Of a stretch of DNA of 63,055 bases, positions 8,942 through 40,706 are shown one piece after another. Origin of the DNA: an uncultured Gammaproteobacteria bacterium (GTDB lineage: Bacteria; Patescibacteriota; Patescibacteriia; HK-STAS-PATE-3); the NCBI GenBank assembly GCA_964637345.1, contig CAZWTD010000004.1, positions 1 to 63,055 of the forward strand. The letters are read 5' to 3'. Position numbers and translations under genes: made by a program. How positions within the stretch are numbered: position 1 is the stretch's first letter; each line of letters opens with the position of its first letter. The notes beneath the pieces were generated by a model that was not told the DNA's origin, made no database searches, and saw only the letters and a list, made by a program, of their open reading frames with translations.

Positions 8942-9016
8942 CTACGACTTCCCTGAACGAAAAGGGCAAATCCGATTAAACTCGCACTCAGCGCAGAGGA
9001 AGGGGTCTGGGGTGGC
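8942..9016 (-). pseudogene. Orphan duplicate of the helicase 3' end (ATPDPFLCAECEFNRICPFRSGKS*)
   Basis: 8958-9013 matches 10395-10450 at 52/56 nt, with a 32-nt perfect core. The differences are synonymous. Confidence 0.9.
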
Positions 9017-9060
9017 GGAGATTCTGTCCTGCGGATTGCTTAAATAATATCAAGGTATAT

Positions 9061-9088
9061 TTGACAATTATATTATTTATGTTATTTT
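9061..9088 (+). promoter_or_regulatory. Sigma70 promoter of the islet gene
   Basis: TTGACA-N16-TATTTT with extended TG in an AT-rich tract. Confidence 0.55.
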
Positions 9089-9130
9089 GACGAGTCCAAA
9101 AATAAAAACTAATAACCATGGAGGTGCCCT

Positions 9131-10255
9131 TTGAAAAAGTATGAGATCTTGCGTGCGATGGGTTGGACTCCGGTCCAAATCGCTGCTTTGCTGGATAGGG
9201 GAATTCCCCAACATGCAAAGGACCAATGCTTCCTCCACCGCTTCTGTCCCGAGCTTCGACCGGAGATTGAAGGGCGGTTAAAGGCGGGTCACTCGACGAT
9301 CAGAGAGTGGGAAAAACTGGCATCCTTAGATCCAGTTCTTCCATTCACTAAGGTTCACGATTTTGTTCTTGATCAGATTCTACCCCTCTTAGGAACTACG
9401 GTCGCCATTATTGATTCAATGTGCCAACTTGAGATGCGAGCAGATTCCATTAATCATCACCCTTGGACCCAGACAGCGTATGCAAGGGCGTTGTCCTTTG
9501 CAGCCAGCCTGGAGGACTGGATTTATCTCTGGCACTTCAGTCACGAAAAAGAAGTATCGAGACGGGCTGAGGCAAAAATCAGAGAGATGTGCTCCACGAA
9601 AGAAGACTGGGTGCACTTTCTTGAGAAGGCGGATGAGCTCGAAGCCTTTGAACGGGAGCTCTACGAATTTGCTGAACGGTTAGTCGGCAGAGAAATGGAA
9701 GATTCTGATCCTGGACTCAGCCTAAACACACACGCAGCCAGATCCACTTCTGATCCGGCGCTTGACTACCTTCGAACAGTTACGGCCTCTCTTCATGGAG
9801 AAATCACCGGAGACCCACAACAACTCTTCCAAGAACTCTTGCGACAGGTGCAGATTCTTCAGAGTGACGACAGCTGCGGTCCAGAACGAGCCTCGGCTAC
9901 CGGCTGGATCATGGATTGTCCGCTTCCCTTTTCTGCCTTCCTAACGGTAGCTAGACAACTCCCAATCGCTACCAAGCCAGAGGAGAAGATCTGGCAGTAT
10001 GTTAGCCGTGACGCTGAGTGTGGGGCGAATGACGCTGTTGTGAAGCGATTGATCGAAACGGCTCAAACACTGAGGGAATGTCACGCGGCGATCAAATACG
10101 CCCCAGACAGTGCTCGGCTAGCTCGCAAGTTCACCGCACTGGCCACATCGATTGAAGACTGGCTCTTTATCTGGAAGTTGGGACTTCAGACGCACAACGC
10201 TGAGCTACAAGACCTCGCATTTGTGAACGCTCTCCAGTATGCCACGGAGAGTTAA
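9131..10255 (+). CDS. Hypothetical alpha-helical repeat protein (islet cargo)
   Basis: GGAGGTG SD before a TTG start, with recurring A-x-[ST]-x-x-[DE]-W units. Confidence 0.7.
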   Translation: MKKYEILRAMGWTPVQIAALLDRGIPQHAKDQCFLHRFCPELRPEIEGRLKAGHSTIREWEKLASLDPVLPFTKVHDFVLDQILPLLGTTVAIIDSMCQLEMRADSINHHPWTQTAYARALSFAASLEDWIYLWHFSHEKEVSRRAEAKIREMCSTKEDWVHFLEKADELEAFERELYEFAERLVGREMEDSDPGLSLNTHAARSTSDPALDYLRTVTASLHGEITGDPQQLFQELLRQVQILQSDDSCGPERASATGWIMDCPLPFSAFLTVARQLPIATKPEEKIWQYVSRDAECGANDAVVKRLIETAQTLRECHAAIKYAPDSARLARKFTALATSIEDWLFIWKLGLQTHNAELQDLAFVNALQYATES

Positions 10256-10279
10256 TTCACAAGCATCAACGGCCTTTTC

Positions 10280-10314
10280 AGCAGCGACTAGCGAGGAACT
10301 AGTCGCTGCTTTTT
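10280..10314 (+). terminator. Intrinsic terminator
   Basis: Perfect 12-bp stem AGCAGCGACTAG/CTAGTCGCTGCT followed by TTTT. Confidence 0.85.
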
Positions 10315-10378
10315 CATATGCTTTCCCTTGCATCAGTCGCCTATTTGTGAGTATCTTTGTACTTTCCTTCTAAAATCT

Positions 10379-13300
10379 CTATCCTCTTCCCGCCCGAAAG
10401 GGGCAAATTCGATTGAATTCGCACTCAGCGCAGAGGAAGGGGTCTGGGGTTGCAACAAAATCTAGAGATTCTATTGCTTGTATTGCGTTGAGCGCCCAGT
10501 CTTTCGCTTTGTCGAGCTCGGCCGGCTTCGGTTCTTTCGTAACTTTTTTGTTTTCATCAATATAGAAAAGGCTCAGTTGGCGAACCGGCCGACCGAGTAA
10601 CTCTGGATCGCTGACTGCGAGCGCGTAGAGGAGAAGTTGATACCAGCGATCAGCCGACGGCTTCTCCTTAGCCGGTCCGGTTTTATAATCAATAATCTCA
10701 ACGCCCTCCGAATCCCCGGGAATCGGATCAACGCGGTCAATCTTCCCGCCGAGAATCCTCCCGTCAAACTTAAGCGTGAAGGATTGCTCAAGAAGAAGAG
10801 GAACAGGAAAGGCGCCTTCTTGTGCCTTGTAAAAACGCTCAAGAACTGCCCATCCCTCCTTTTTTCGTTGCTCCATCTCGCGCTCTGAAGCGTACCATTC
10901 ACGAATCCAGGCTGACGCATACAAGGTCTTGAGTTCCTCAAGCGAAACGAGAGGCTTCGTACCCGACGAAGTTTGGGCGCCGAACAAGCTTCCCTGCTGC
11001 TGAACGCTTCGCTGTCGAACGAGCTGAAAAAAATGATAGAGCGTAGCGTGGATCGACGATCCATAGGACAGTCGCGCGTTACCGGACACCGGAACGTCAA
11101 GGACATAACGATAGCGATATTTCCATGGACAAAGCTCGTAGGCGCTTAAGCGCGAATAGTCGTAACGTTCGTTTGTCCGGACCTTCCGAATAATCGCCTC
11201 GGGCTCTCCGTCCGCGACCCTCTGCGACAAAAGCGGGGCGAGCTTCGGCTGGCGAACTCGCTCTTCAGCAGCAGACTCTTTCGTCACCAACCCAAGCTCT
11301 TCGAGAAACAGAGAAGCTTTTTTCCGACGCGCCCCGCCGTAATCTAAGGCCCGACATAAAATGATATGCTCTTTCGCGCGGGTCAAGGCAACATAAAAAA
11401 GCCGGCGCTCCTCTTCGAGATGAATATCGCCCTCCGGGAGCGGCTCGCGAATCAAGGCATCTGGGACCGGAATTCCCTCGCTCCGGTCGCGGGACGGAAA
11501 ACGCTGTTCAACGAGGTGGACAACGAACACCATGCGAAACTCCAAGCCCTTCGCCGCATGAACCGTCATCACCTTCACGCTATCCGGCCCGTCTTCAGGG
11601 GCGGTTTCGAGCCGACCGAGCTCACCGGCGTCTATCGCAAGATCAATGACCTCAAGGAATGCTCGGACGTTGGGCGCAAGTTTTCCGCGCTCGAATTCAA
11701 CGACCTCGTTTAAGAGCTGATTCGCGTAGCCAATTTCGGCCTCGCGCTTCGGATCATCCGGCGCTTCGCTTAGCCACTTCAAATACCCGCTCTCTTCAAG
11801 GAAGCTTACGATAACTTCTCGAGGCGTAGCGCGACGAGCGAGCTCTGCATGTCGGCTGATAAGGCTCAGGAGCCGGTCAGCGTCTGCATGCGCTTCCGGA
11901 CGCCAATCAGCGAGGAGGGCGTGATCGCGCAAGACGGCGAAGGTCGATCGGCTCTGGCGGCGCGCGGTTTCATTCAAAAGAATGACGTCATCAGCCCGAA
12001 ATCGAAACATCGGGAGATTGAGCACCCGCTGAAGCGCGACGCTTTCATGATAATTGTCGAGAAGTCGCACGTAGGCAAAAATGTCGAGCACGATACTCAT
12101 CCGGTAGAGGCCACGCGAAGCGACGTATTGGTACGGAAGACCGTTCCGTTCCAACTCGGACAGAAAGAGCTCAGCGTGGTCATTAGCCCGAACGAGAATT
12201 GCTACGTCGCTCCAGGCTAGCGTCGCGTCGGCATTTTTCGCCTCTAAAATTTTCCCGACGACCGTCCGCGCCTCTTCAGCCTCAGTCTCAGCCACAACAC
12301 ACTGAATGGATCCGGCGTCCGGTCGCGCTGCAGTGAGTCTCTTAGAAACGGTCGTCCCGAGCTGCTTCGGAGCGGCGCTGAGCTGGGCCTCGAGCCGATT
12401 GGGGTTATTCTTTTGAATAAACGCATACGCCGCGTCGAGGATGGACTGGGCCGAACGGTAATTCTCCGTCAAAACGACGTCAGTGCTGTCCGGATAATCG
12501 TGCTTAAAGCCGAGGATATTCGCGACGGACGCGCCGCGGAACTTATAGATCGATTGATCATCATCTCCGACGACGGTGAGGTTTCTCCGCTTTCCGGCCA
12601 AGAGTTTCACTAACTCGTACTGCGCCCAGTTCGTATCTTGAAATTCATCAACGAGGATGGCGCGGAATTGCTCTTGGTAACGAGCGAGGATCGCCGGCCG
12701 CTCCCGAAAGAGGCGCATCGTCTCAACAATCAGATCGCCAAAATCGAGCCCCCAATGCTCGCGGAGCAAGCGCGTGTAGCGGTCGTAGCTTTCCGCGAGT
12801 TCGCGAAGGCGGTCGAGGTCGAGCGTTTCTTCATCCGCCGACACCCCGGGAACTCCGTCACTCGCATCACGATCGAGCTGAAGTTTTTTTACGAAATCGA
12901 GATAGTCGGCCGGCGTCACTCCCTCATCCTTTAATCGTGAAAAATGACTGACGAGGGATTTAAGAAATTTCGTGGGCTTTCCTGATGGGCGGTAATAGGA
13001 CAAGGGAAACTCGTCGAGGTGTTTTCGGAGAAACAGCCATTGCTGCCGTTCATTGAACAGCTCAAAGTCGCCCGGTAGACCGATATCAATCGCGTACTCC
13101 CGAAGAATGCGCTCGCCAAAGCCGTGGAAGGTCGACACCCACAAATCGAGATAGCCGTAGGGAACGCGCCGGTCAATTCGCTCCGCCATCTCGCCCGCCG
13201 CCTTTTCGGTAAAAGTCAAACACAATATTTCGTCCGGCCGGTACTTCTTCTCGGTCATGAGCCAGGCCATGCGCTCAACAATCACGGTGGTTTTGCCGGT

Positions 13301-13426
13301 CCCGGCCCCCGCGACGATTAAGAGGGGCCCGTCGCCATGCCGAACCGCTCGCTCCTGTTCAGCGTTGAGCCGTACTGCATTCAATTGTCCACCGTTGTCC
13401 CCCGCCGGTACATCGCCTTCCTTCAT
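10379..13426 (-). CDS. UvrD/PcrA-family SF1 helicase fused to a C-terminal PD-(D/E)XK nuclease with Fe-S cysteines (AddA/AdnB-like)
   Basis: AGAGTGKT, VDEFQD, GDDDQSIYKFRGA, ENYRS, TVHAAKGLEF, ERRLFYVALTRA. Nuclease part: CPWKY..GKIDRVD..IIDYKTG..CAECEFNRIC. Confidence 0.92.
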   Translation of the reverse strand: MKEGDVPAGDNGGQLNAVRLNAEQERAVRHGDGPLLIVAGAGTGKTTVIVERMAWLMTEKKYRPDEILCLTFTEKAAGEMAERIDRRVPYGYLDLWVSTFHGFGERILREYAIDIGLPGDFELFNERQQWLFLRKHLDEFPLSYYRPSGKPTKFLKSLVSHFSRLKDEGVTPADYLDFVKKLQLDRDASDGVPGVSADEETLDLDRLRELAESYDRYTRLLREHWGLDFGDLIVETMRLFRERPAILARYQEQFRAILVDEFQDTNWAQYELVKLLAGKRRNLTVVGDDDQSIYKFRGASVANILGFKHDYPDSTDVVLTENYRSAQSILDAAYAFIQKNNPNRLEAQLSAAPKQLGTTVSKRLTAARPDAGSIQCVVAETEAEEARTVVGKILEAKNADATLAWSDVAILVRANDHAELFLSELERNGLPYQYVASRGLYRMSIVLDIFAYVRLLDNYHESVALQRVLNLPMFRFRADDVILLNETARRQSRSTFAVLRDHALLADWRPEAHADADRLLSLISRHAELARRATPREVIVSFLEESGYLKWLSEAPDDPKREAEIGYANQLLNEVVEFERGKLAPNVRAFLEVIDLAIDAGELGRLETAPEDGPDSVKVMTVHAAKGLEFRMVFVVHLVEQRFPSRDRSEGIPVPDALIREPLPEGDIHLEEERRLFYVALTRAKEHIILCRALDYGGARRKKASLFLEELGLVTKESAAEERVRQPKLAPLLSQRVADGEPEAIIRKVRTNERYDYSRLSAYELCPWKYRYRYVLDVPVSGNARLSYGSSIHATLYHFFQLVRQRSVQQQGSLFGAQTSSGTKPLVSLEELKTLYASAWIREWYASEREMEQRKKEGWAVLERFYKAQEGAFPVPLLLEQSFTLKFDGRILGGKIDRVDPIPGDSEGVEIIDYKTGPAKEKPSADRWYQLLLYALAVSDPELLGRPVRQLSLFYIDENKKVTKEPKPAELDKAKDWALNAIQAIESLDFVATPDPFLCAECEFNRICPFRAGRG

Positions 13427-16857: not shown

Positions 16858-17766
16858 TTATGAGGCGAGGGCGATCTTCGAGGCGGAAATCTCCGAAAGA
16901 TCTTTCGTGATTCCGGCTTGGCGGGCTTTATTGTATTCGAGCGTCAGTTCGTCGATAAGTTCAGTCGCGGCATCGCTCGCATTCCGCATCGCGAGCATTC
17001 GAGCCGCGTGCTCCGAGGCCGAGGCTTCGAGCAGGCCTTGGTAGAGCTGCATCTCAACGAGTCGAAGCAGCATCGCTTCAAGAACCGCGTCCGGCGACGG
17101 CTCGAAGAGGTATTCCTGAATGTCCGGCGTTTCAAGCTCCGTCATTGGCTCGGCTGCCGGACCGGACTCCGCCATCATTTCCTGGACTGACGCGCGCGAG
17201 ATCGGAAGAATCATCCGAGCCCGCGGCTTCTGGGCGAGCGGCGAAAGGTAGTCGGTCCCGATCAGCACGACGCGGTCGTAGGTCCCGTCGATGTACTGAT
17301 CAATCGCGATTCGAGAAATCGGCAGGACGTCGGCCAGGCTCGCCTGACGGCTGGGAACCGGCCAGCTCGCGACAACGTTCGCGCCAGCGCGAACGAGCGC
17401 CGCTTCGGCGCGCGCGCCCATCGTCACGACGTCAACCGGGGTTGAACCGAAACGCTTGATGACCTGAAGCACGGTTCGAACCAACTGGGTCGTTAATCCC
17501 CCGGCGAGACCGCGATCGGACGAATAGACAACAAGGAGCGCCCGCTTCAGGTCGCGCTTCGTGAGAAGCCGGTGGAGATTCGGGTCAGTCACATCCGACA
17601 GGTTGACGAGAATGTCCCAGGCGCGTACCGCATAGGCGCGCGTCGCGAGCGCAGCCTGAACAGCCCGCCGCATTTTTGATGCAGACACCAGCTCCATCGC
17701 CTTCGTAATCTTCTTCGTGCTGGCGATGCCTTTGATTCGTCGTTTGAGTTCGCGCGTCTGGGCCAT
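16858..17766 (-). CDS. atpG: ATP synthase F1 gamma
   Basis: KITKAMELVSASK, SDRGLAG, SEHAARMLAM, NKARQAGIT. Confidence 0.97.
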   Translation of the reverse strand: MAQTRELKRRIKGIASTKKITKAMELVSASKMRRAVQAALATRAYAVRAWDILVNLSDVTDPNLHRLLTKRDLKRALLVVYSSDRGLAGGLTTQLVRTVLQVIKRFGSTPVDVVTMGARAEAALVRAGANVVASWPVPSRQASLADVLPISRIAIDQYIDGTYDRVVLIGTDYLSPLAQKPRARMILPISRASVQEMMAESGPAAEPMTELETPDIQEYLFEPSPDAVLEAMLLRLVEMQLYQGLLEASASEHAARMLAMRNASDAATELIDELTLEYNKARQAGITKDLSEISASKIALAS

Positions 17767-17773
17767 GATACTC

Positions 17774-19272
<1,499 letters not shown>

Positions 19273-19276
<4 letters not shown>

Positions 19277-19701
19277 ACCGTGGCCTTCGTTCGTGAATGA
19301 ATAGAGGGAGACAAAGATGAGGAAAGCTGGACGCGGAGCCGGCGAAGCGCGGCAGTCACACTGCCATCGATTCGGGTGTCCCCGACCGTGAGGACGGCGC
19401 CGCCCTTGAGCGAGGGGTCAACCGTGTGGTCGACGACAACTGCGCCAATCTGCTCCTTCAACCCGTTCGCAATCGACTGAGCCGAGTGCGGCCGGGCGGT
19501 CGTGATCCGGACGCGGGTCGTCCCGGAGCGTTGGAGGGCGAGCTCTTCGGCCGCCGCGAGAATACGCGGGAGGAGCTTTCCGGCTTTCGCCCGGCGAAGC
19601 CGGACGAGTAAGCGTTCGAGGATGCGCTTCTGCTCTTCGGCGTTCGCGCCGTCGCAGGCGTCGAGGTAGGCTTCGGCGTATTGGCGAGGAGAAAGCTTCA
19701 T
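19273..19701 (-). CDS. atpH: ATP synthase delta
   Basis: Operon position, and [22 protein letters not shown]. Confidence 0.88.
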
Positions 19702-20195
19702 CGTTTCGCGGTGGTGAGCGCCTGCTTCACAAGCTCAAGATCTTTCGCGTCGGTAAGCTTTTCGTCGAGAACGCGGCCCGTAGCTTCAGCGACAATATCC
19801 GCGAGCTCGGTGCGGGCTTCGGTGATTACCTGCTCCTTCAGGGCGGCAACTTCTCCCTGGGTCCGCTCCACCAACGCTTGAATATCGGCCTTTGCCTCGT
19901 TCAGCATAGTGACGCGAAGCTGTTCCGCGTCCGCTCGAGCGCCGGCCATAATCGACTCGGCCTTCTTCTCGGCTTCCGCCATTTTCGCGGCGTAGGCGGC
20001 TTCGCTGTTCTTGAGGTTCTCATCAATCTTCTTCGCGTCTTCGAGCGACTGCTCAATCCGCTTCGAGCGGCGTTCGAGCGCGCCGAGAATCGGCTTGTAC
20101 GCGAATTTGTACAAGACAAAGAACAGGATGAAGAAATTGACGAGCTGCGCAATCAGGAGTTTGAAATCGATGCCGAGCTTCTCGAGGAGTTCCAT
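19698..20195 (-). CDS. atpF: ATP synthase Fo b
   Basis: AQLVNFFILFFVLYKFAYKP followed by a coiled coil. Confidence 0.93.
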   Translation of the reverse strand: MELLEKLGIDFKLLIAQLVNFFILFFVLYKFAYKPILGALERRSKRIEQSLEDAKKIDENLKNSEAAYAAKMAEAEKKAESIMAGARADAEQLRVTMLNEAKADIQALVERTQGEVAALKEQVITEARTELADIVAEATGRVLDEKLTDAKDLELVKQALTTAKR

Positions 20196-20225
20196 ACGTT
20201 GATAGTGTAGTTAGGCGTTCATTCC

Positions 20226-20280
20226 CCCGCCCCATCATTGCGAGCGCATGCGCGGCAATCTCGGGGCGGGATCGATGACA
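20226..20280. repeat. REP-like palindromic element (TCATTGCGAGC..GCAATCTC family) between atpE and atpF
   Basis: CCCGCCCC-ATCATTGCGAGC..GCAATCTC-GGGGCGGG, then ATGACA. A second copy is at 40656-40705. Confidence 0.75.
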
Positions 20281-20286
20281 GTCCGA

Positions 20287-20514
20287 CTAAACGAACTTGA
20301 TAATCAAAGCAATGACTAATGCGTAGATCGCGATCGCTTCTGCGAAAGCCATCGCAATAAGCATCGGGACCTGGATCTTTCCGGCGGCTTCCGGATTCCG
20401 GCCGATCGCTTCCATCGCTTTCGCGGCGAGCTTACCGATCGCGAGCGCGGGGATCATACCTCCGAGGGCGATCGTGAGCCCAGCGGCGATGAGTTTAATT
20501 GCTCCTTCTTCCAT
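20287..20514 (-). CDS. atpE: ATP synthase Fo c
   Basis: AIGRNPEA and AFAEAIAIY (proton-binding Glu). Confidence 0.96.
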   Translation of the reverse strand: MEEGAIKLIAAGLTIALGGMIPALAIGKLAAKAMEAIGRNPEAAGKIQVPMLIAMAFAEAIAIYALVIALIIKFV

Positions 20515-20595
20515 ACTGACGTTCCTTTCTTCTGGGTCTGGTCGACGAGTGATTGGAGTTTAACGTCGCCTTTCCCTTACTACGAATGAAATGAC

Positions 20596-20646
20596 TTAGT
20601 GAGGCTCAAGGGTCGCGATCCTGACGCGCTTCGCGCTCAGGATGGC
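20596..20646 (-). repeat. Degenerate tandem copy of the atpB 3' end containing a palindrome
   Basis: Encodes AILSAKRVRIATLEPH* versus atpB AILTLVFIKVATLEPH*. It contains ATCCTGACGCGCTTCGCGCTCAGGAT. Confidence 0.75.
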
Positions 20647-20650
20647 CTTA

Positions 20651-21388
20651 TTAGTGGGGTTCAAGGGTGGCCACCTTAATAAAGACTAAGGTGAGGATGG
20701 CGAAGACAAATCCCTGGATGAATCCAACGAATATTTCGAGGAAGTAAAACGGGAGCGGGACGATAAAGGGAATAAGGCTCGAGATAACGACGAGGAGAAC
20801 TTCCCCGGCGAAGACGTTCCCGAACAACCGGAAGGAGAAAGAGAGGATCTTCGAGATATCGGAAACGAACTCAAGGGCCCCGACGAAACCGAGGATGGGA
20901 TTCCGGAAGTTGATGAAGCGCTTCGAGTACTTCGCCGCGCCGATCGCGAGAATTCCGAAGACCTGCATCGCGACCACCGAAACGATGGCGAGCGCCAGCG
21001 TCACATTCAAATCGCTGTTCGTTGAACGGAAGAAGGGAACGAGGACTTCATGTCCCTCATGCTGCTCGTAGATCCCGATCGGACCGAAACCTGGAAAGAG
21101 CCCGAGCCAGTTCGCGGTTACGACGAAAAGAAAAATCGTCATGATGAGCGGAAAAAACTTCCGCGACTGCTTCCGGTCGCCGGTCACGCCGTCCATCATT
21201 CCAAGCAGGGCCTCGAAAATCGCCTCAACAACGTTCTGAATCCCCCGCGGGACCTCGCGGATGCTCTTTTTAAGCGTAATCGCCAGGATCGAAAGCAGCC
21301 CGATCGTGATCCAGGAGGTTAACAAGGTATTCGTAATCGGAAAGCTTCCGATGTGGAAAATGGGTTCTGCGGCGAGGGAAATCGTCAT
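20651..21388 (-). CDS. atpB: ATP synthase Fo a
   Basis: SFSFRLFGNVFAGE, FIQGFVFAILT. Confidence 0.96.
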   Translation of the reverse strand: MTISLAAEPIFHIGSFPITNTLLTSWITIGLLSILAITLKKSIREVPRGIQNVVEAIFEALLGMMDGVTGDRKQSRKFFPLIMTIFLFVVTANWLGLFPGFGPIGIYEQHEGHEVLVPFFRSTNSDLNVTLALAIVSVVAMQVFGILAIGAAKYSKRFINFRNPILGFVGALEFVSDISKILSFSFRLFGNVFAGEVLLVVISSLIPFIVPLPFYFLEIFVGFIQGFVFAILTLVFIKVATLEPH

Positions 21389-21675
21389 GAGTGAGGTTGG
21401 GCGTCAGTTTCGTCCGATGTCGTGGGCTTCGTTTGATCCGGAGCGTCGATCGTCCGCATGATCTTCAGGGCTTTCACGATGAGCGCAACCGATGAAATCG
21501 CGATCGAGACGACGACCCCGGCCACAAAGAGCCAAGGATGGGTCCCGAACTTCCGATCAAGGACGCGCCCGCCAATTCCGAAGAGAATGAGAGGGACAAC
21601 GATCGTATACCCGAACTGCCAGGCATAGCCGAGCGCTTGGTAGAGAGCCGCGCGTTGAGGCGAGTTCGAGGCCAT
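21385..21675 (-). CDS. AtpZ/AtpI-family ATP synthase accessory protein
   Basis: Two TM helices with GRVLDRKFGTHPW, first gene of the atp operon. Confidence 0.85.
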   Translation of the reverse strand: MASNSPQRAALYQALGYAWQFGYTIVVPLILFGIGGRVLDRKFGTHPWLFVAGVVVSIAISSVALIVKALKIMRTIDAPDQTKPTTSDETDAQPHS

Positions 21676-21737
21676 AGGATCGTCCGAAAAGACGAAAAAT
21701 ACTGAAAATACGACTTATCCACAAAAAGAACGCATCT

Positions 21738-21766
21738 AAAATACCTATATTTGACATATAAGTCAA
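21738..21766 (-). promoter_or_regulatory. Sigma70 promoter of the atp operon
   Basis: TTGACT-N17-TATTTT. The -35 is one arm of the palindrome TTGACATATAAGTCAA. Confidence 0.6.
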
Positions 21767-21834
21767 TCCTCGGCTTTTTCAGTTTTGCCCGTCCCCTGTT
21801 TCTTCAGGGCAGACTGCGCTAAAATGCTAGCGCT

Positions 21835-22875
21835 ATGGAAACCCTCCTCCTCGTCGTTATCATCATTCTCGCCGCAATTCTTGTGGCTGGCTTCGCTTAC
21901 CTAAGCCAAAAACTCGGGAAGCTGCAAAAACCGGCTGACGATCCCCAGTCGCTCCTCATGCTCAACCAGAACCTTCAAGGCCTCCAGACCCGCCTCGACG
22001 AGACGAGCCGCTCGATCCACCAGTCGATGCAGACCCAGTTCGGCCAGAGCGCCCAGATTATCAAAGATGTCACCGAACGGCTCACAAAACTCGACGAAAC
22101 GAACAAGCAAGTCCTCAACTTCTCCGGCCAGCTTCAAGGGCTTCAGGACCTCCTGAAAAACCCGAAGCAGCGCGGCGCAGTCGGCGAGTATTACCTCGAG
22201 ACCGTCCTGAAGAATGTCCTCCCGCCCGGGAGCTACGAGACGCAATACCGCTTTAACGACGGCGAGATCGTCGACGCGATTGTCCGGGTGAAGGACAAGA
22301 TCATCCCGATCGACGCGAAATTCTCCCTCGAGAATTATAATCGCCTCGTCGAGACGACCGATCCGGTCGAGCGCGAGCGCCTCGAGAAGGCGTTCGTGAA
22401 CGACCTGAAGCTCCGAATCCAGGAAACCGCGAAATACGTCCGCCCGGAAGAAGGGACGCTCGACTTCGCCTTTATGTTTATCCCCTCGGAAGCGATTTAC
22501 TACGACCTGCTCATCAATAAAGTCGGCGCTGTCAAAGAGAACACCGAGAACCTCATCCAGCGCGCCGGCGGGAAATACCGCGTCATCATCGTCTCCCCGA
22601 CCTCCTTCCTCGCCTACCTCCAGACCGTCCTCCAAGGACTTCGCGCGCTCCAGATCGAAGAGTCCGCGAAAGAGATCCGCAAGAACGTCGACGACCTCTC
22701 GCGCCACCTCCGCGCCTACGAGGAGTATCATACGAAACTCGGCGGCCATCTGAAAACGACCTTGAACGCCTACGTCGCGTCCGACGGCGAGTTCAGGAAA
22801 ATCAACAAAGACGTCCTGAAGATTTCGGACGCGCCCGCCTCCCCCGCCCTCCCGCCGACCAACGAAACCGAATAG
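21835..22875 (+). CDS. rmuC: DNA recombination protein RmuC
   Basis: N-terminal TM, coiled coil, KQRGAVGE, IPIDAKF, FAFMFIPSE, VSPTS. Confidence 0.92.
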   Translation: METLLLVVIIILAAILVAGFAYLSQKLGKLQKPADDPQSLLMLNQNLQGLQTRLDETSRSIHQSMQTQFGQSAQIIKDVTERLTKLDETNKQVLNFSGQLQGLQDLLKNPKQRGAVGEYYLETVLKNVLPPGSYETQYRFNDGEIVDAIVRVKDKIIPIDAKFSLENYNRLVETTDPVERERLEKAFVNDLKLRIQETAKYVRPEEGTLDFAFMFIPSEAIYYDLLINKVGAVKENTENLIQRAGGKYRVIIVSPTSFLAYLQTVLQGLRALQIEESAKEIRKNVDDLSRHLRAYEEYHTKLGGHLKTTLNAYVASDGEFRKINKDVLKISDAPASPALPPTNETE

Positions 22876-22884: not shown

Positions 22885-22992
22885 TTATAACAGCTCCCCG
22901 CTCGCAAGGTGCTGACTAGCCTGCGAGTAGTTCGCATAAAACACCAAACATAACCTTTATGCGCAATTATTTCGCATAATAACGAGTTGTAC
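22885..22992 (+). other. Degenerate attC-like recombination site preceding cassette 1
   Basis: TTATAAC(22885) and ACATAAC(22948), hairpins CTCGCAAGG/CCTGCGAG and TTATGCG/CGCATAA, ending in GTTGTAC. Confidence 0.45.
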
Positions 22993-23949
22993 GAAAATTT
23001 GCCTCCCTCATTATCAGATAAGCGCGGCTATACCACCAAGATTACTAAACACCGAATGACCCACAAATACCACATGCTAAAGTTCGACGTATTAGCAAAT
23101 GTTATATCGGGTCTTTTTGGAATAACTACAAAAAATAAAAGTGTTTTTGAAATCCCATCTGATTTCTTACTCATGTTTGATTTACAGGTAGAATTTCAAC
23201 AATGGCCTGATAAATCTGAAAGAAATGAAAGAGTGCATCAATTAGCCTCGAGACTGATATTAGCATTTAACGATATAAATGAATCGATTGGTTCATTAAA
23301 CAGAAATCTTGTTTTGCTAAATAGTGACTTTAGTTTGGTTAGAGTAAAAAAGATTCCGATTCAAAAAGCATTACTGGAGAAAAGACTAGACCAAGTATTC
23401 CATGATGTAAGAGTTTCTAAAGGTCTCTCTAGTATAATTACGCCCCATATAAAAAGTTCTCTAACTCTTTTATTAAGATCATATGTTGATCGGGTTGCTG
23501 AGGACTGTAAAAAGGTGGTCGAAGTAATTTCTCCAAGAGGTAACCCTTTAGTTAAAAACCTCAACGTGCCTCCCGCATACTTGCAGCAAACCAACGAGGT
23601 GTTAGATCTATTTTACCTTGGGTACAAATCTACAAGCCTACTGGTCTTAGGAAAACTATTTGAGGGAATATTAACTCGCTACATTATTCGTCTTGTGCAA
23701 TCGAATAAAATTAATTTGAACATGTCGGCCCTTAGAGAGATGACGTTTGATAATAAACTTGGACTATTGTTTTCAAAAGGATTTGTTACAAGAAAAGATT
23801 ACTTGATTCTTGCTAAACTGATTTGGGATAGGAACATTGGTGGGCATTTTGTGAGCGAAAGAAAACGTAGGGAATCAGAAAAAGAGGCAGAGGCCACAAT
23901 TAAGTTAGTTATGCCCTTATTGAAGAAGTATGACACAAAACTGAAATGA
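22987..23949 (+). CDS. Cassette 1: protein with C-terminal HEPN/DUF4145-like domain
   Basis: AT-rich. LVLGKLFEGIL..DRNIGGH contains R-x4-H. Alternative ATG at 23056. Confidence 0.7.
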   Translation: MYENLPPSLSDKRGYTTKITKHRMTHKYHMLKFDVLANVISGLFGITTKNKSVFEIPSDFLLMFDLQVEFQQWPDKSERNERVHQLASRLILAFNDINESIGSLNRNLVLLNSDFSLVRVKKIPIQKALLEKRLDQVFHDVRVSKGLSSIITPHIKSSLTLLLRSYVDRVAEDCKKVVEVISPRGNPLVKNLNVPPAYLQQTNEVLDLFYLGYKSTSLLVLGKLFEGILTRYIIRLVQSNKINLNMSALREMTFDNKLGLLFSKGFVTRKDYLILAKLIWDRNIGGHFVSERKRRESEKEAEATIKLVMPLLKKYDTKLK

Positions 23950-23988
23950 TAGCCGCGCTTATCTTTATTAGACGATCGGCAAATCATC

Positions 23989-24045
23989 GTACAACAGCGT
24001 CTATACGACATAACGAGTACGTCGTATGAGACGCAAACGTTAGGT
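23989..24045 (+). other. attC site 1 (57 bp)
   Basis: GTACAAC-A-GCGTCT-ATACGAC..GTCGTAT-G-AGACGC-AAAC-GTTAGGT, including an extrahelical G. Confidence 0.9.
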
Positions 24046-24063
24046 GCCATTTCGTCTCATAAC

Positions 24064-25110: not shown

Positions 25111-25506
25111 TCAGTCGATTCTGGATCTCGACGCGTTCGCCAGGTCGTCGATGACGAGTAATGTGGCGAGTCTGCTCGGATCATCCTTGATGACGTAGCC
25201 CGAGAAGGAACTCCGGGTGCCGTCAAGTCTTTGGAGCTCGACGACACTGACATTCCACTCAATCCCGGAAGATCCCAACCGGATGATCGTGGTCGACTCG
25301 TCGACGGCGAAGGCAGAGCTGTTATCGACAGTGCACTGTGCGATCCCGTCGTACCAGTAGACACCGAGGGTGCCCGTCGCACTCTGGAAGTGGAGCACCA
25401 TGGAATCGGTTGGAACAATGTGGCTGGTGAGTCGCACGCTACTGCACCCGGCGGACGCCCCGACGAAGAGCGTACCGATCAACACAAGGAACGTGAAACG
25501 CCTCAT
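25111..25506 (-). CDS. Cassette 3: predicted lipoprotein, reverse orientation
   Basis: AAGGAGG SD, signal peptide with lipobox-like SAG-C. Confidence 0.7.
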   Translation of the reverse strand: MRRFTFLVLIGTLFVGASAGCSSVRLTSHIVPTDSMVLHFQSATGTLGVYWYDGIAQCTVDNSSAFAVDESTTIIRLGSSGIEWNVSVVELQRLDGTRSSFSGYVIKDDPSRLATLLVIDDLANASRSRID

Positions 25507-25587
25507 AGCGAACCCTCCTTCAGTTGGGACGTTTGCCTGGCGGGGATCAAGACAATCGGTAGTTGCCAGATTTCTACCGAACGTGCG

Positions 25588-25616
25588 AGCGTATCACGAA
25601 ATGACTATAATGTCAA
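25588..25616 (-). promoter_or_regulatory. Cassette-internal sigma70 promoter
   Basis: TTGACA-N17-TACGCT with extended TG. Confidence 0.7.
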
Positions 25617-25646
25617 TAGAAACTGTAAGAAAATACATCTTACAGC

Positions 25647-25708
25647 GCACAACACGGCGTATACGCCACTCCGTTTCTCTCCGCAGCGCATACGCCGAAA
25701 CGTTAGCT
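25647..25708 (+). other. attC site 3 (62 bp)
   Basis: GCACAAC-A-CGGCGTAT..ATACGCCG-AAAC-GTTAGCT. Confidence 0.88.
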
Positions 25709-32595: not shown

Positions 32596-34047
32596 CTAAC
32601 GGCTTTCTAACTTCAGCCTCGGAAATAGACCTTCGCCCTTCGTAATCTTCTCGGCCGAAAACGCTTCCCGAATTCGCTTTCCGGTTTCCGGCAGAAAGGG
32701 TTCAACTAAGCCAGCAAGAGCCAGCAGGCTCTTCGCCCAGCGCGAGAGGTGATTTCGGACCCCTGCCTCGTCGGTTTTTACCAGCACCCAGGGCTTAGCC
32801 GCATCGATCTCTTCATCAATCGCGGTCACGAAACTCTGAATCGTTGTTAACGCGCCCTGAAGGTGGAGCTTCGTCATTTCCTCCTGATATTTCTCAACGA
32901 GCGCCGTACTCTGCTGATCGAGTTCGAGCGTCCGGTCAACCTGGCCGTCGCAGTATTGCTCGATCATCTTCGCCGTCCGCGCAACGAGGTTCCCGAGGCC
33001 GTTCACGAGATGAGCTTCGTACTGTTCAGCCAACACGCTCGGACGAATATCGCCGTCGCTCCCAAAACGGAACTGACTTAAGAGAAGAAAACGGGTCGCG
33101 TCGACGCCATACTTCGCAATGAGATCATTCGGATCAAGAACATTCCCGAGCGACTTCGACATCTTCGTCCCGTTCAGGGTGAAAAAGCCGTGCGCGAAAA
33201 TCCGGCGCGGTAACTCCTCCCCGGCCGCCAAGAGCATCGCCGGCCAGTAGACTGCATGAAACTTCAGGATATCCTTCGCCATGAGGTGAAGATCAGCCGG
33301 CCACCATTTCGTATACTCAGCCTCATCCGCTCCGTAGCCGATCGCGCTCACGTAATTCATTAACGCCTCAACCCAGACGTAGATCTTCTGGCCGTCCTCG
33401 TAGGGAAAAGGAATTCCCCATTCAACGCGCTGGCGGGTGATTGAGAAATTGTTTAAGCCCTGATCAATCAAGGCGAGGACTTCATTCCGCCGAGCCTCGG
33501 GCTCGATGCGAAGCGCATTCGTCTCGATCAACGCACGAACCTTCGGGAGATACTCTTCAAGGTGAAAAAACCAGTTGTCCTCCTTCACAAGCTCAGGACT
33601 GGTTTTGTGGATCGGACATTTCCCGTCGACGAGATCTTTCTCGGTATAAAAATCCTCGCAGCCTCGGCAATAGAGGCCTTCATAGGTCCCTTTATACAGA
33701 GCGTTTGCCTTATAGAGCTTATCGATAAATTTATGGACGGCATCAGCGTGACTCGGGAGAGTCGTTCGCATGAAAATATCATTACTGATATCGAGAGCTC
33801 GGAAAGCTGACTCAAACGCTTTCGCGTTCTCATCGACAAATTCCTGAATCTCGAGATTGGCCGCCATGGCGCTCGCTGCTACCTTATCCCCGTGCTCATC
33901 CGTCCCCGTTAAAAAGAACACATCGTCGCCGAGTGAGCGATGATAGCGCGCGAGAACGTCTGCCGCGAGGGTCGTATAGGCATGCCCCAGATGCGGCTTA
34001 TCGTTGACATAGTATATTGGCGTGGTGACGTAGAATTTCTTCACCAT
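32596..34047 (-). CDS. metG: Methionine--tRNA ligase (short form)
   Basis: YVTTPIYYVNDKPHLGH, GTDEHG, KMSKS. ATG at 34047. Confidence 0.96.
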   Translation of the reverse strand: MVKKFYVTTPIYYVNDKPHLGHAYTTLAADVLARYHRSLGDDVFFLTGTDEHGDKVAASAMAANLEIQEFVDENAKAFESAFRALDISNDIFMRTTLPSHADAVHKFIDKLYKANALYKGTYEGLYCRGCEDFYTEKDLVDGKCPIHKTSPELVKEDNWFFHLEEYLPKVRALIETNALRIEPEARRNEVLALIDQGLNNFSITRQRVEWGIPFPYEDGQKIYVWVEALMNYVSAIGYGADEAEYTKWWPADLHLMAKDILKFHAVYWPAMLLAAGEELPRRIFAHGFFTLNGTKMSKSLGNVLDPNDLIAKYGVDATRFLLLSQFRFGSDGDIRPSVLAEQYEAHLVNGLGNLVARTAKMIEQYCDGQVDRTLELDQQSTALVEKYQEEMTKLHLQGALTTIQSFVTAIDEEIDAAKPWVLVKTDEAGVRNHLSRWAKSLLALAGLVEPFLPETGKRIREAFSAEKITKGEGLFPRLKLESR

Positions 34048-34124
34048 AGATTGGGTCGTAATGCCTGCCCCACACAAGGAGCGAAGCAACGCGATGCGGG
34101 GTAGAACTTCTTGGGTTCAGTCAT
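34030..34124 (-). repeat. Duplicated metG start (MTEPKKFY / MVKKFY) around a palindromic insert
   Basis: AAGAAGTTCTAC (34101-34112) versus AAGAAATTCTAC (34030-34041), offset 71. Confidence 0.65.
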
Positions 34125-34133: not shown

Positions 34134-34162
34134 ATTGTACGACCCTTTCCCGAGACAAGCAA
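34134..34162 (-). promoter_or_regulatory. Sigma70 promoter of metG
   Basis: TTGCTT-N17-TACAAT, 9 nt before ATG 34124. Confidence 0.7.
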
Positions 34163-39292: not shown

Positions 39293-39296
39293 GATA

Positions 39297-39484: not shown

Positions 39485-39490
39485 GGTTGT

Positions 39491-39661
39491 CTACCGCTCG
39501 TCGTCCTTCTTCTCAACGCTGGGAACCTCAGATTCCTCTTCAGGAACGTCGTTCCCTCCCCCGGCCGGACGATACCCAGCGCAGAATAGGGTCGACCCAG
39601 GATACTCGACCGGCTCTTGAGGTTCTTCTTTCGGCTTTTCGTCGTCACTTTTGCCACTCAT
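39491..39661 (-). CDS. 56-aa small protein, below the ORF-track cutoff
   Basis: AAGGAG SD. Sequence MSGKSDDEKPKRRTSRAGRVSWVDPILRWVSSGRGGNDVPEEESEVPSVEKKDDER. Confidence 0.5.
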   Translation of the reverse strand: MSGKSDDEKPKEEPQEPVEYPGSTLFCAGYRPAGGGNDVPEEESEVPSVEKKDDER

Positions 39662-39721
39662 CACTATCTCCTTGTCGCCGAAATGGCAGGCCTATTCTTC
39701 TCCGAAGGGAAACATTTGTCA

Positions 39722-39760
39722 ATAAAAAAAGAGCCCCGCACCATTGCAGTGGTGCGGGGC
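39722..39760 (-). terminator. Intrinsic terminator
   Basis: Perfect 11-bp stem GCCCCGCACCA/TGGTGCGGGGC followed by TCTTTTTTT. Confidence 0.85.
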
Positions 39761-39800
39761 AAGGATCAGGCTACTGCCTCTCGAGTCGCGAGGTACGCGG

Positions 39801-40373
39801 CTAGCAGAGGGTCGCCGGCGTTGAGGTGGCGAAGGCGGTCTCGTCGATGAAGTTCGGCGCGGTTCCGCGCTCGCTTCCGGAACGTTGAACCATCGCGGGC
39901 TGCGTCATGCTGGCCGTCGTCGAGGTGGCCTTGTCGGAGATCTCGCCCGTGAACATCGCCGTCGGGTCGATCGGCGCCTGTCCGCGCTCGATTCCGAGTG
40001 CCAGCACTTGGCTCGACGGGTGATGCGAAATTCCAAACGACGACTCCTCGTTGATGGCCGCGCCGTCGAAGATGACGATGTGCCGCACCTCCGAGCGACT
40101 GGTCAGAGTGGCGTCGTTCCTGTTGACGCATCCTCCATTGGTGGTTCCGATGTAGTTGGCGACCTCGGACGTCCACACGCTCATCTTGACGTCGTTGGTC
40201 AGGGCGAACGCGGTCTTCTCCCCGTCGATGGGCTGACCCGTCGTAGCCACGCCGATGACGGACTGGGCGGTCTGGTCGAAGCAAATCGCGTTGGTCGCGG
40301 CCATGCTCTGCATGATCGGCAGAGTCAAAGCCAACGCGACCGACATGAGAACCAGGAGCCACTTGCGCGCCAT
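39801..40373 (-). CDS. Secreted Thr/Ala-rich hypothetical protein
   Basis: AAAGGAGG SD before ATG 40373, and a signal peptide. Confidence 0.65.
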   Translation of the reverse strand: MARKWLLVLMSVALALTLPIMQSMAATNAICFDQTAQSVIGVATTGQPIDGEKTAFALTNDVKMSVWTSEVANYIGTTNGGCVNRNDATLTSRSEVRHIVIFDGAAINEESSFGISHHPSSQVLALGIERGQAPIDPTAMFTGEISDKATSTTASMTQPAMVQRSGSERGTAPNFIDETAFATSTPATLC

Positions 40374-40500
40374 AGAGCCTCCTTTCACAGAAGCGCGCCT
40401 CGTACCTGTTGTGAAGGTTCACTGGTGTCGTCCGCCCCAAAACTGCCGGGACAAACGTGGTTATCCTACAAAATTAGCCAAAAAAGTCAAGAAGAAAACG

Positions 40501-40706
40501 AAAACCCCGCGCCGAGATTGAAACCTTTTACTAAGCGCGTATGATTCTCCCTGCATTGTCATGCCGGACCACGATCCGGCATCCATGGATTCCGGCTCAA
40601 GGCCGGAATGACAGAGGAGCAAAAGGCTACCCGAAGGCGAATGAACAATAGAAAACCCGCGCCGGTCATTGCGAGCCTAGGAAGGCGAAGCAATCTCGGC
40701 GCGGGG
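40501..40706. repeat. Composite palindrome cluster (REP dimer, TCATTGCGAGC element and 16-bp outer inverted repeat)
   Basis: CCCCGCGCCGAGATTG (40505-40520) and its exact reverse complement (40691-40706). TGTCAT..ATGACA dimer at 40557-40613. Confidence 0.8.

What the first reader, a model, noticed from the sequence alone, without database searches (positions are those of the whole stretch)
8942..40706. Recurring 'self-repairing' insertions that duplicate and recode the gene end or signal they interrupt
Seen at four loci. (a) Helicase C-terminus: two copies 1437 bp apart, 20 identical codons, synonymous differences. (b) atpB C-terminus: two copies 55 bp apart. (c) metG N-terminus: two starts 71 bp apart. 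(d) A terminator arm at 40501/40652. In (a)-(c) the copy next to the host's downstream gene or promoter is now dead, and the working copy abuts the inserted DNA. A simple target-site duplication gives identical copies that then decay at random. The mostly synonymous differences seen here suggest the incoming DNA carried its own functional version of the gene terminus. Inference: an integrase-free system that targets the termini of essential genes and keeps them intact. It may be related to the short palindromic elements found at (b)-(d). No mobilising enzyme is in the window.
Basis: partly seen in the sequence, partly recalled or inferred. Interest (0 to 1): 0.85.

Follow-up and report, generated by a model that had tools for sequence, protein, structure and literature searches.

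The report
Gene-end duplications flanking inserted DNA
In this Patescibacteria genome piece, DNA has been inserted into the ends of housekeeping genes so that each gene keeps a working end and the old end is left beside the insert, a known signature of integrating elements, seen here without any integrase.

Summary
All four duplications are present at the stated spacings. Support is strong for (a), (b) and (d), and weak for (c).

(a) A 1362-bp cassette sits inside the last 24 codons of a UvrD/PD-(D/E)XK helicase gene. It has one orphan gene with its own promoter and terminator. The two gene ends share a 32-nt identical core. After the core come 13 differences in 39 nt, mostly synonymous. That pattern fits a single crossover with incoming DNA that carried a foreign but functional helicase end. 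It does not fit a target-site duplication that decayed in place.

Relatives have the empty site, and the closest genome carries a different 6.5-kb insert at the same site. The 55-bp block of (b) is absent from a relative with 81% nucleotide identity, but in-place duplication is not excluded there.

The same architecture recurs in other Patescibacteria at gyrB 3', helicase 5', tatD 5' and pheS 5'. The cargo is toxin-antitoxin, Fic and similar genes, never a recombinase. One toxin-antitoxin cassette with its own pheS start is shared by two divergent genomes.

This matches e14/icd and dusA islands, minus the integrase. The enzyme is unknown. A link to the hairpin elements is not supported.

The parts
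10379..10453 (-). (a) Live 3' end of the UvrD/PD-(D/E)XK helicase gene (gene 10379-13426): last 24 codons plus stop. The 32-nt core identical to the other copy is 10419-10450.
8942..9016 (-). (a) Stranded (dead) copy of the helicase 3' end: same 20 residues, then SGKS*. The identical core is 8982-9013. In-frame stops lie upstream.
9017..10378 (+). (a) Inserted 1362-bp cassette. Promoter-like TTGACA-16-TATTTT at 9061-9088. ORF374 at 9131-10255 (TTG start, GGAGGTG ribosome-binding site). Terminator hairpin at 10280-10310. No terminal inverted repeats. GC 49%.
8890..8909 (-). Terminator-like hairpin just downstream of the stranded helicase end. Probably the helicase gene's original terminator.
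8451..8830 (-). Conserved small membrane-protein gene followed by pheS. These are the original downstream neighbours of the helicase gene, as in L002, L082 and many relatives.
20651..20671 (-). (b) Live end of atpB (ATLEPH*).
20617..20650 (-). (b) 34-nt insert holding the hairpin ATCCTGAGCGCGAAGCGCGTCAGGAT (20618-20643), -19.3 kcal/mol. Absent from relatives L164 and L165.
20596..20616 (-). (b) Stranded copy of the atpB end. It and the spacer after it align with the single copy and spacer of L164.
34041..34124 (-). (c) Short upstream reading frame. The putative old metG start (ATG 34122-34124; KKFY codons 34101-34112) now opens a 27-codon frame. Its TGA overlaps the working start (ATG 34045-34047; KKFY 34030-34041). 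A promoter-like TTGCTT-17-TACAAT lies at 34134-34162.
40652..40706 (-). (d) Present terminator of gene 40716-41948: 5' arm 40691-40706, inner hairpin of the GAGATTGCTTCGC...CTCGCAATGAC type, new 3' arm plus T-run 40652-40672.
40522..40651 (-). (d) 130-nt insert with two small hairpins (40561-40582 and 40589-40609). The second is 26/26 identical to a hairpin in the distant genome L013.
40501..40521 (-). (d) Orphan 3' arm plus T-run. It is a perfect partner of the 5' arm and is followed by a promoter-like TTGACT...TAGGAT, read from the sequence by eye.
62895..63022 (.). A 30-nt direct repeat (29/30; 62895-62924 and 62993-63022) flanks 68 nt with hairpins, just upstream of the vanZ-like gene start (about 62878, minus strand).

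Best explanation
The duplications are the two junctions left when DNA that carries a short copy of a conserved gene's end recombines once with that gene. This is a Campbell-type single crossover.

Locus (a). The incoming DNA held the last 24 or so codons of a helicase gene from a related but different lineage, plus a one-gene cassette. The crossover fell in the 32-nt stretch where the two sequences were identical. The helicase gene now finishes with the imported 13 codons and stop. The resident end, with its terminator and downstream genes, was pushed 1437 bp away and is no longer translated. Because the imported end had itself served as a working gene end, it differs from the resident end mainly at synonymous sites.

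Locus (c) would be the mirror image at a gene start. Locus (d) would be the same thing at a terminator.

Loci (b) to (d) carry only 34 to 130 nt of insert. They are most likely eroded remnants of such events, or alleles acquired from a relative that already had them.

Shown: the insertions, the empty sites for (a) and (b), the block pattern and synonymous bias, the absence of a recombinase in the inserts, and the recurrence in other Patescibacteria. One cassette there demonstrably travels with its own gene start.

Inferred: the single crossover, and that the small loci share this origin.

Unknown: the enzyme. It could be host recombination on short homology, or a recombinase encoded elsewhere.
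For: - Geometry and reading frames of (a).
- Block pattern in (a): 1 difference in the first 36 nt against 13 in the last 39 nt, and 7 synonymous against 3 non-synonymous codons.
- The helicase-to-membrane-protein/pheS arrangement without an insert is the common state. This includes L082, the next closest helicase at 58% aa identity.
- Only the window and its closest relative L002 carry a second helicase end (z = 32 and 13). Their inserts are unrelated. A neutral copy could not stay recognisable over 59% aa divergence, so the site was hit twice.
- Same architecture elsewhere: L006 gyrB 3' end (8 synonymous, 2 non-synonymous; empty site in L005), L088 helicase 5' end with Fic, L119 tatD 5' end, L144 and L074 pheS 5' end with a toxin-antitoxin pair.
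- In L144/L074 the cassette plus pheS codons 1-13 has third-codon-position identity of 0.79-1.0. The rest of pheS has 0.55-0.60 and the helicase is 69% nt identical. L074 also keeps a different resident start as the stranded copy.
- Orphan copies of C-terminal 24-aa segments: 8 in 1584 genes, against 0, 0 and 1 for internal control segments.
- Synonymous fraction over seven repeat pairs is 0.48, against 0.30-0.37 simulated for in-place decay (P 0.001-0.025).
- In (d) the orphan arm, not the working arm, is the perfect partner of the 5' arm.
- Precedents: e14/icd (PMC6379469) and dusA islands (PMC4482086).
Against: - No circular form, donor allele or excised allele has been seen for any window locus.
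- No closer relative of the helicase region than 58-59% aa was found, so the 14 differences in (a) cannot be polarised.
- For (b), the outgroup L164 suggests two derived synonymous changes in the live copy and one change in the stranded copy. In-place duplication explains that equally well.
- A 55-bp or 151-bp unit cannot plausibly be a double-stranded circle.
- The only other context of an ORF374 homologue with both flanks (L001) is a different site with only a 15-nt flanking repeat. So this cassette is not tied to the helicase end.
- Three of the eight orphan hits are REP-like palindromes, and one (L088) is the helicase N-terminal copy picked up through a spurious ORF, so the enrichment is smaller than it looks.
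- Two pairs (L121, L144) are not synonymous-biased.
Confidence: 0.6

Rival explanations
1. Homology-facilitated illegitimate recombination after DNA uptake. A linear fragment from a related lineage recombines homologously inside the conserved gene. Its other, non-homologous end joins illegitimately a few dozen bases before the resident gene's end. The donor's gene end plus its neighbouring DNA are gained, and the resident end is kept as an overlap.
For: - It gives the same product: allele-type, synonymous-biased differences, no recombinase needed, and any insert size, including 34-205 nt.
- Homology of the C-terminal repeats stops exactly at the stop codon, as expected for two orthologous gene ends with unrelated spacers.
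- The mechanism is documented in naturally competent bacteria and in E. coli conjugation (PMC3240628).
Against: - Differences should then be spread evenly along the repeat. In (a), L088, L119 and L144 an identical core adjoins a diverged block.
- In L074 the shared high-identity tract ends at pheS codon 13. That leaves a homologous anchor of only about 18-40 nt, far shorter than anchors as I recall them from the literature (my own knowledge, not checked here).
- No stranded fragment longer than about 130 nt was found, although random joints should give some. Long repeats might, however, be lost by deletion.
Confidence: 0.2
2. In-place duplication: a target-site duplication or a slippage-type local duplication made when a small hairpin element or cassette was inserted. 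The live copy then changed only synonymously and the other copy drifted. This applies mainly to the small loci (b), (c), (d) and 62895/62993.
For: - (b) and (d) both have 21-nt repeats around hairpin-rich inserts.
- With L164 as outgroup, (b) needs only 2 synonymous changes in the live copy and 1 change in the other.
- Patescibacteria spacers are rich in tandemly repeated hairpin units.
Against: - Repeat lengths range from 12 to 105 nt. There are no terminal inverted repeats and no transposase.
- Other copies of the same hairpins have no flanking repeats.
- In (d) the unused arm is the perfect one and the working arm is imperfect, the reverse of what selection after an in-place duplication predicts.
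- In (a) the block pattern and synonymous excess reject it.
Confidence: 0.25
3. These are remnants of ordinary integrase-encoding islands or prophages that lost their integrase, or integrase-less elements moved in trans by an integrase encoded elsewhere in the genome or on a helper element (cis-mobilisable elements).
For: - The att-like imperfect repeats at gene ends are exactly what tyrosine-integrase elements leave (PMC6379469; PMC4482086).
- Only 63 kb of this genome is visible, and about ten window ORFs match no family.
- L002's 6.5-kb insert looks like an island of mixed cargo.
Against: - None of the inserts examined, in the window and in seven other genomes, has a recombinase or a recognisable fragment of one.
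- The inserts are compact, as small as 205-640 nt.
- The unit shared by L144 and L074 is just the cassette plus the gene start.
- Many different genes are targeted, so many integrase specificities would be needed.
Confidence: 0.25
4. Assembly artefact: two strain alleles were joined in series, or a small circular molecule was threaded into the chromosome path.
For: The window comes from a metagenome-type assembly with no identical contig on record. A 32-nt shared core could in principle link two assembly paths.
Against: - The same architecture is seen in independent assemblies from different projects (L002, L006, L074, L088, L119, L144).
- The repeats of (b) to (d) share no exact word long enough to mislead an assembler.
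- The flanks of each copy fit gene order in relatives.
Confidence: 0.04

Closest known systems
e14 / phage 21 integration in the icd gene of E. coli (element supplies a replacement 3' end and a pseudo-icd' fragment is left behind)
   Same: The insert sits inside the last codons of a housekeeping gene. The working end abuts the insert. A stranded copy of the end lies at the far junction. The two ends are imperfect repeats and the protein is almost unchanged (PMC6379469; window).
   Different: e14 is a prophage with its own integrase and excisionase. Here the insert is 1.36 kb with one orphan gene and no recombinase. The host is a Patescibacteria bacterium.
dusA-specific genomic islands (integrase family that targets the 5' end of dusA and replaces it)
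   Same: This is the mirror case at a gene start. The island supplies the new 5' end, the original 5' end stays as a remnant, and 21-bp semi-conserved imperfect repeats flank the island (PMC4482086). It is comparable to (c) and to L088, L119 and L144/L074.
   Different: dusA islands encode a dedicated integrase next to the junction and use one conserved site. Here there are many target genes and no integrase.
Integrase-less islands flanked by short direct repeats (E. coli H47 genomic island; cis-mobilisable elements of streptococci, the latter from my own knowledge)
   Same: These are small islands bounded by direct repeats, with no recombinase of their own. [quoted passage not shown]
   Different: In those cases the repeats are not recoded copies of an essential gene's coding end. 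Mobility has not been tested here.
Homology-facilitated illegitimate recombination in natural transformation
   Same: Foreign DNA is gained next to a conserved anchor without a dedicated enzyme (PMC3240628).
   Different: The usual products, as I recall them from the literature (not checked here), are insertion-deletions with a long anchor. The identical-core-plus-diverged-block pattern and the very short shared tract in L074 fit it poorly.
REP/BIME-type and MITE-type small palindromic elements
   Same: The inserts of (b) and (d) are built of short GC-rich hairpins. Some of them recur almost identically in distant Patescibacteria genomes.
   Different: From my own knowledge, REP elements make no target duplication and MITEs make short, fixed, exact ones and have terminal inverted repeats. 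Here the repeats are 21 nt and imperfect, and other copies of the hairpins lack them.

Membership tests
Site-specific integrative element at a gene end (prophage, genomic island, integrative mobilisable element) | Imperfect direct repeats (attL/attR) made of the target gene's end flank the insert | tested here: met
Site-specific integrative element at a gene end (prophage, genomic island, integrative mobilisable element) | Insert absent from related genomes, which have an uninterrupted site | tested here: met
   (a): L082 and many others. (b): L164 and L165.
Site-specific integrative element at a gene end (prophage, genomic island, integrative mobilisable element) | The element supplies a replacement end so the reading frame stays intact | tested here: met
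   Intact 1015-aa helicase with a full PD-(D/E)XK domain. Block pattern of differences. Direct demonstration in the analogue L144/L074.
Site-specific integrative element at a gene end (prophage, genomic island, integrative mobilisable element) | Integrase or recombinase gene inside the element next to one junction | tested here: not met
   ORF374 matches no family and is an all-helical repeat protein. No recombinase in the L002, L088, L119, L144, L148 or L161 inserts.
Site-specific integrative element at a gene end (prophage, genomic island, integrative mobilisable element) | Excision to a circle with a reconstituted attP and attB | not testable with these tools
   Needs reads from the source sample or an experiment.
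Insertion sequence, transposon or MITE | Terminal inverted repeats at the insert ends | tested here: not met
Insertion sequence, transposon or MITE | Target-site duplication of fixed length, identical when made | tested here: not met
   Repeat lengths of 12-105 nt. The differences are clustered and synonymous-biased.
Insertion sequence, transposon or MITE | Transposase gene, or many copies of the element in the genome | tested here: not met
   No transposase family in the window. Insert sequences are single-copy in the window.
REP/REPIN elements moved by a RAYT transposase | Many near-identical hairpin copies plus a RAYT (HUH) gene | tested here: inconclusive
   There are a few related hairpins in 63 kb and similar hairpins in other genomes. 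No RAYT in the window, but the rest of the genome is unseen.
Product of homology-facilitated illegitimate recombination | One joint inside homologous DNA, the other at a microhomology with the donor | not testable with these tools
   No donor sequence and no close relative of the helicase region.

The most novel reading that the evidence does not exclude
Patescibacteria may host a class of minimal mobile cassettes carrying toxin-antitoxin, Fic, restriction or orphan genes. Their only 'mobility module' would be a 20-100-nt copy of the end of a conserved essential gene. That copy would serve both as the homing site, through recombination on very short homology by host functions or an unlinked enzyme, and as the spare part that keeps the target gene intact. 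The cassettes could then spread between lineages whose housekeeping genes are saturated at synonymous sites.
Probability: 0.22. Interest if true: 0.75.

Novelty: new variant of a known kind. Interest (0 to 1): 0.5.

Why it matters
Patescibacteria have tiny genomes, and how they gain accessory and defence genes is poorly understood. If small cassettes can enter the ends of essential genes while carrying the replacement end, and need no integrase of their own, that is a cheap route for gene flow between quite divergent lineages. It would also explain stranded fragments of gene ends in these genomes. For annotation, such stranded ends and short upstream reading frames should not be called as genes or taken for assembly errors. 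If the events are only occasional by-products of recombination with foreign DNA, the finding is an ordinary, already understood signature.

Tried and rejected
- Transposon-type target duplication. Rejected for (a): no terminal inverted repeats, no transposase, variable repeat lengths, clustered synonymous differences.
- Hairpin elements as the agents. Rejected: the same hairpins in L013, L026, L096, L135 and L154 have no flanking repeats.
- ORF374 as a hidden recombinase. Rejected: no family match. It is an all-helical repeat fold with only TPR/HAT-like matches at TM < 0.3. Only 7 relatives were found among 1.8 billion representatives, and none in viral contigs.
- Shared backbone between the window and L002 inserts. 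None found.
- Closer relatives for the helicase region. Genome, metagenome and protein searches gave nothing above 59% aa. Exact look-ups of window proteins found nothing.
- Contigs of further ORF374 relatives (L162, L163) were too short to show both flanks.
- Long stranded gene fragments (>130 nt). None found.
- Off-target Cas1-Cas2 style integration (34-nt insert with a duplicated 21-nt 'repeat' in (b)). Considered but not pursued: no cas gene in the window, and the insert sizes are inconsistent (34, 53, 130 nt).
- Integron cassettes. No attC-like site or IntI at the four loci.
- Rfam found only the tmRNA gene. No tRNA genes were found.
- L076's apparent C-terminal copies turned out to be REP-like palindromes read into an ORF.
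Full report
**What the window is.** The helicase gene's best matches are metagenome-assembled Patescibacteria (Parcubacteria-type) genomes. The closest is only 59% aa identical (L002), and metagenome contigs gave nothing closer. The region of the finding holds mostly minus-strand housekeeping genes:
- pheT, pheS and a small membrane-protein gene
- a 1015-aa UvrD plus PD-(D/E)XK helicase
- the atp operon
- rmuC, tatD, metG and others

The order atp operon, helicase, pheS is conserved across about 75 related loci.

**Locus (a).** The direct repeat is real: 59 nt at 92% identity, spacing 1437, E 8e-17 in a self-BLAST.
- In the gene's frame both copies encode ATPDPFLCAECEFNRICPFR. They then read AGRG* (live, 10379-10453) or SGKS* (stranded, 8942-9016).
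- The stranded copy is preceded by in-frame stops and no start.
- It is followed by a terminator-like hairpin (8890-8909) and by the genes that follow the helicase gene in relatives.
- The 1362 bp between the copies holds a strong promoter-like site, one ORF of 374 aa with a good ribosome-binding site, and a 12-bp-stem terminator. It has no terminal inverted repeats.

**ORF374.** It matches no Pfam, NCBIfam or PHROG family. It has seven relatives among 1.8 billion representative proteins and none in viral contigs. It is predicted to be an all-helical repeat protein whose only structural matches are weak TPR/HAT-like ones. It is cargo, not a recognisable recombinase.

**Is (a) an insertion, and of what kind?** The next closest helicase (L082, 58% aa) and many other relatives go from the helicase gene to the membrane-protein/pheS genes with little or no extra DNA. 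The 1.4 kb is therefore an insertion.

A protein-level scan of the helicase end against 9 kb downstream in every locus found a second copy only in the window (z = 32) and in L002 (z = 13). In L002 the stranded copy is about 105 nt long and about 70% identical, with a stop and a frameshift. It lies 6.5 kb downstream, behind NUDIX, aminotransferase, histidine-kinase and other genes, with no integrase. The two inserts share nothing but the helicase end. A neutral fragment could not remain recognisable over the divergence between these genomes, so the same site was used independently.

The two window copies differ at 14 positions: one in the first 36 nt and 13 in the last 39 nt, with a 32-nt identical core between. 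Seven differing codons are synonymous and three are not. Decay of a once-identical target duplication should be spread evenly and be mostly non-synonymous in the dead copy. The observed pattern is what a single crossover inside the identical core gives, when the incoming DNA carries an orthologous and previously functional helicase end.

**Locus (b).** The atpB end ATLEPH* occurs twice, 55 bp apart, with three synonymous differences and a 34-nt hairpin (-19.3 kcal/mol) between the copies. A search with AtpB found closer relatives.
- Contig L164 (92% aa) aligns with window 17156-22562 at 81% nt identity.
- The only indel longer than 13 nt in 5.35 kb is this block. It is absent from L164 and from L165.
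- The stranded copy and the spacer after it align with L164's single copy and spacer.

So (b) is a true lineage-specific insertion with an empty allele in a relative. With L164 as outgroup, the live copy has two derived synonymous changes and the stranded copy has one change. In-place duplication is therefore not excluded for this locus.

**Locus (c).** Only 11 of 12 nt (KKFY) are shared, 71 bp apart. The context is suggestive. A promoter-like TTGCTT-17-TACAAT is followed by an ATG whose frame contains the first KKFY. That frame runs 27 codons and ends in a TGA overlapping the working ATG (ATGGTGA). In a test over 59 genes the match alone has P about 0.10. With the in-frame ATG, a criterion I chose after seeing the data, P is about 0.003. 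I treat (c) as plausible but unproven.

**Locus (d).** On the minus strand, the terminator after gene 40716-41948 is a 9-bp GC stem enclosing a small hairpin, followed by TTTTC. 130 nt further on lies an orphan 3' arm plus TTTTC that is a perfect 16-nt complement of the 5' arm. The present hairpin folds at -31.3 kcal/mol. The 5' arm with the orphan arm would fold at -43.7 kcal/mol with a 17-bp perfect stem. The unused arm is thus the better partner. That is the opposite of what selection after an in-place duplication predicts, and it fits an imported replacement arm.

The 130-nt insert holds two small hairpins. One of them is 26/26 identical to a hairpin in the distant genome L013. Copies of these hairpins elsewhere have no flanking repeats, so the hairpins themselves are not shown to cause the duplications.

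A fifth locus of similar shape lies at 62895-63022, upstream of a vanZ-like gene.

**Is it a general phenomenon?** I scanned the last 24 residues of genes in about 160 Patescibacteria loci (2.7 Mb) against their own locus, and all short direct repeats within 10 kb. Cases of the same architecture:

| Locus | Duplicated end | Insert | Notes |
|---|---|---|---|
| L006 | gyrB 3' end (20 codons) | 205 nt, one 60-aa membrane ORF | 8 synonymous, 2 non-synonymous; relative L005 has the empty site |
| L088 | helicase 5' end (28 codons) | about 1 kb, small ORF plus Fic | 5 synonymous, 1 non-synonymous; 43-nt identical core |
| L119 | tatD 5' end | 3.1 kb, Fic-HTH, DUF218, NUDIX | |
| L144, L074 | pheS 5' end | about 640 nt, antitoxin plus YafQ/ParE-type toxin | |
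| L148, L161 | terminator or spacer repeats | radical-SAM/Clp_N genes (L148); Mrr restriction gene (L161) | |

None has a recombinase.

Orphan copies exist for 8 of 1584 C-terminal segments, against 0, 0 and 1 for three sets of internal control segments. Three of the eight are REP-like palindromes in L076. One (L088) is the helicase N-terminal copy, found through a spurious ORF.

Over seven coding repeat pairs the synonymous fraction is 0.48. Simulated in-place decay gives 0.30-0.37 (P 0.001-0.025). Two pairs (L121, L144) do not follow the trend.

**The key parallel.** L144 and L074 are genomes whose helicase genes are 69% nt identical. Third-codon-position identity in most of pheS is 0.55-0.60, which is close to saturation. 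Yet the toxin-antitoxin cassette scores 0.79-0.88 at third positions, and the first 13 codons of the working pheS are 100% identical between the two genomes. The stranded start in L074 is a different sequence (ATGACGACAAATCTTCAAAACCTAAAG...). A cassette together with its own pheS start has therefore reached the same site in two divergent hosts. The resident start was displaced, and the crossover fell within an 18-nt shared stretch.

**Mechanism.** The best-supported reading is a Campbell-type single crossover between the gene and a short homologous copy of its end carried by the incoming DNA. What catalyses it is unknown.
- One-sided homologous plus illegitimate recombination after DNA uptake gives a similar product. 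It fits the core-plus-block pattern and the very short shared tract less well.
- In-place duplication remains possible for the small loci.
- Loss of an integrase, or action of one in trans, cannot be excluded from 63 kb.
- An assembly artefact is unlikely, given the recurrence in independent assemblies.

**Comparison with known systems.** Replacement of a gene's 3' end by an integrating element, leaving a pseudo-end, is classical (e14 and phage 21 at icd; PMC6379469). Replacement of a 5' end is known for dusA islands (PMC4482086). Integrase-less islands bounded by direct repeats that excise without RecA exist (H47 island; PMC5426353). What differs here:
- the lack of any recombinase in cis across many independent cases
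- the very small size of the units
- the variety of target genes
- the host group

I therefore file this as a new variant of a known kind, not as a new kind of system. The link to the palindromic elements remains unsupported.

Noticed in passing
window 22987-25653: Two very low-GC ORFs (22987-23949, 35% GC; 24064-24654, 37% GC; the window is 55%) match no family. Each of the two ORFs, and a further stretch at 25005-25653, is bracketed by its own long-range inverted repeat: 16/16 at 23016/23949, 17/18 at 24039/24638 and 21/24 at 25005/25630. Two arms start GTT..., end ...AAC and sit next to a GCTAGCC motif. They may be cassette or element boundaries.
   Followed up: partly
window 20541-20568 (minus strand) and many loci: A conserved motif CGACGTTAAAC, then 10-14 nt, then GTCGAC lies between atpB and atpE in the window and in many Patescibacteria loci. 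It may be a conserved RNA hairpin in the atpE leader. Rfam has no match at gathering threshold.
   Followed up: no
window 62895-63022: A 30-nt direct repeat (29/30), 98 bp apart, flanks hairpins of the ATCCCGCC...GGCGGGAT type just upstream of the vanZ-like gene start. This is a fifth locus of the same general shape.
   Followed up: partly
L144 8884-9632 and L074 14576-15310: A toxin-antitoxin cassette of about 640 nt (YafQ/ParE-type toxin), together with the first 13 codons of pheS, is near-identical in two genomes that are otherwise about 69% nt identical. Each genome keeps a stranded pheS start upstream.
   Followed up: yes
L006 14253-14583; L088 8846-10068; L119 281-3494: Further gene-end duplications with inserts: gyrB 3' end with a 60-aa membrane ORF, helicase 5' end with a Fic gene, and tatD 5' end with Fic-HTH, DUF218 and NUDIX genes.
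   Followed up: yes
L001 1073-2331: The closest ORF374 homologue (42% aa) lies next to a radical-SAM/SPASM gene and a Cys/Asp-rich 47-aa peptide. It is flanked by a 15-nt direct repeat, AGATGAGGGGTGTTT, whose second copy is the 3' arm of its own terminator.
   Followed up: partly
L121 13975-14581: A stranded copy of a C-terminal region differs from the live one by 14 non-synonymous and 0 synonymous codons. Nearly all are G-to-A changes (Gly/Arg to Asp/Asn). This looks like a strand-biased mutation pattern.
   Followed up: no
L076, at least five intergenic sites (e.g. 6323-6391, 9858-9914, 19660-19722): A REP-like palindromic element, AACAAATCCCTCCCCAACCCTCCCTTTGACAAGGGAGGG...GGGGGATTTGTTG, is repeated between genes. 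One copy is read into a gene's C-terminus.
   Followed up: partly
loci L002-L081, helicase-to-pheS spacer: The distance between the helicase gene and pheS varies from about 0.2 kb to 7 kb among relatives. The spacer looks like a general hotspot for accessory DNA.
   Followed up: partly
window 60740-61141: A tmRNA gene lies directly after smpB. ARAGORN found no tRNA (or tmRNA) gene in the 63 kb.
   Followed up: no
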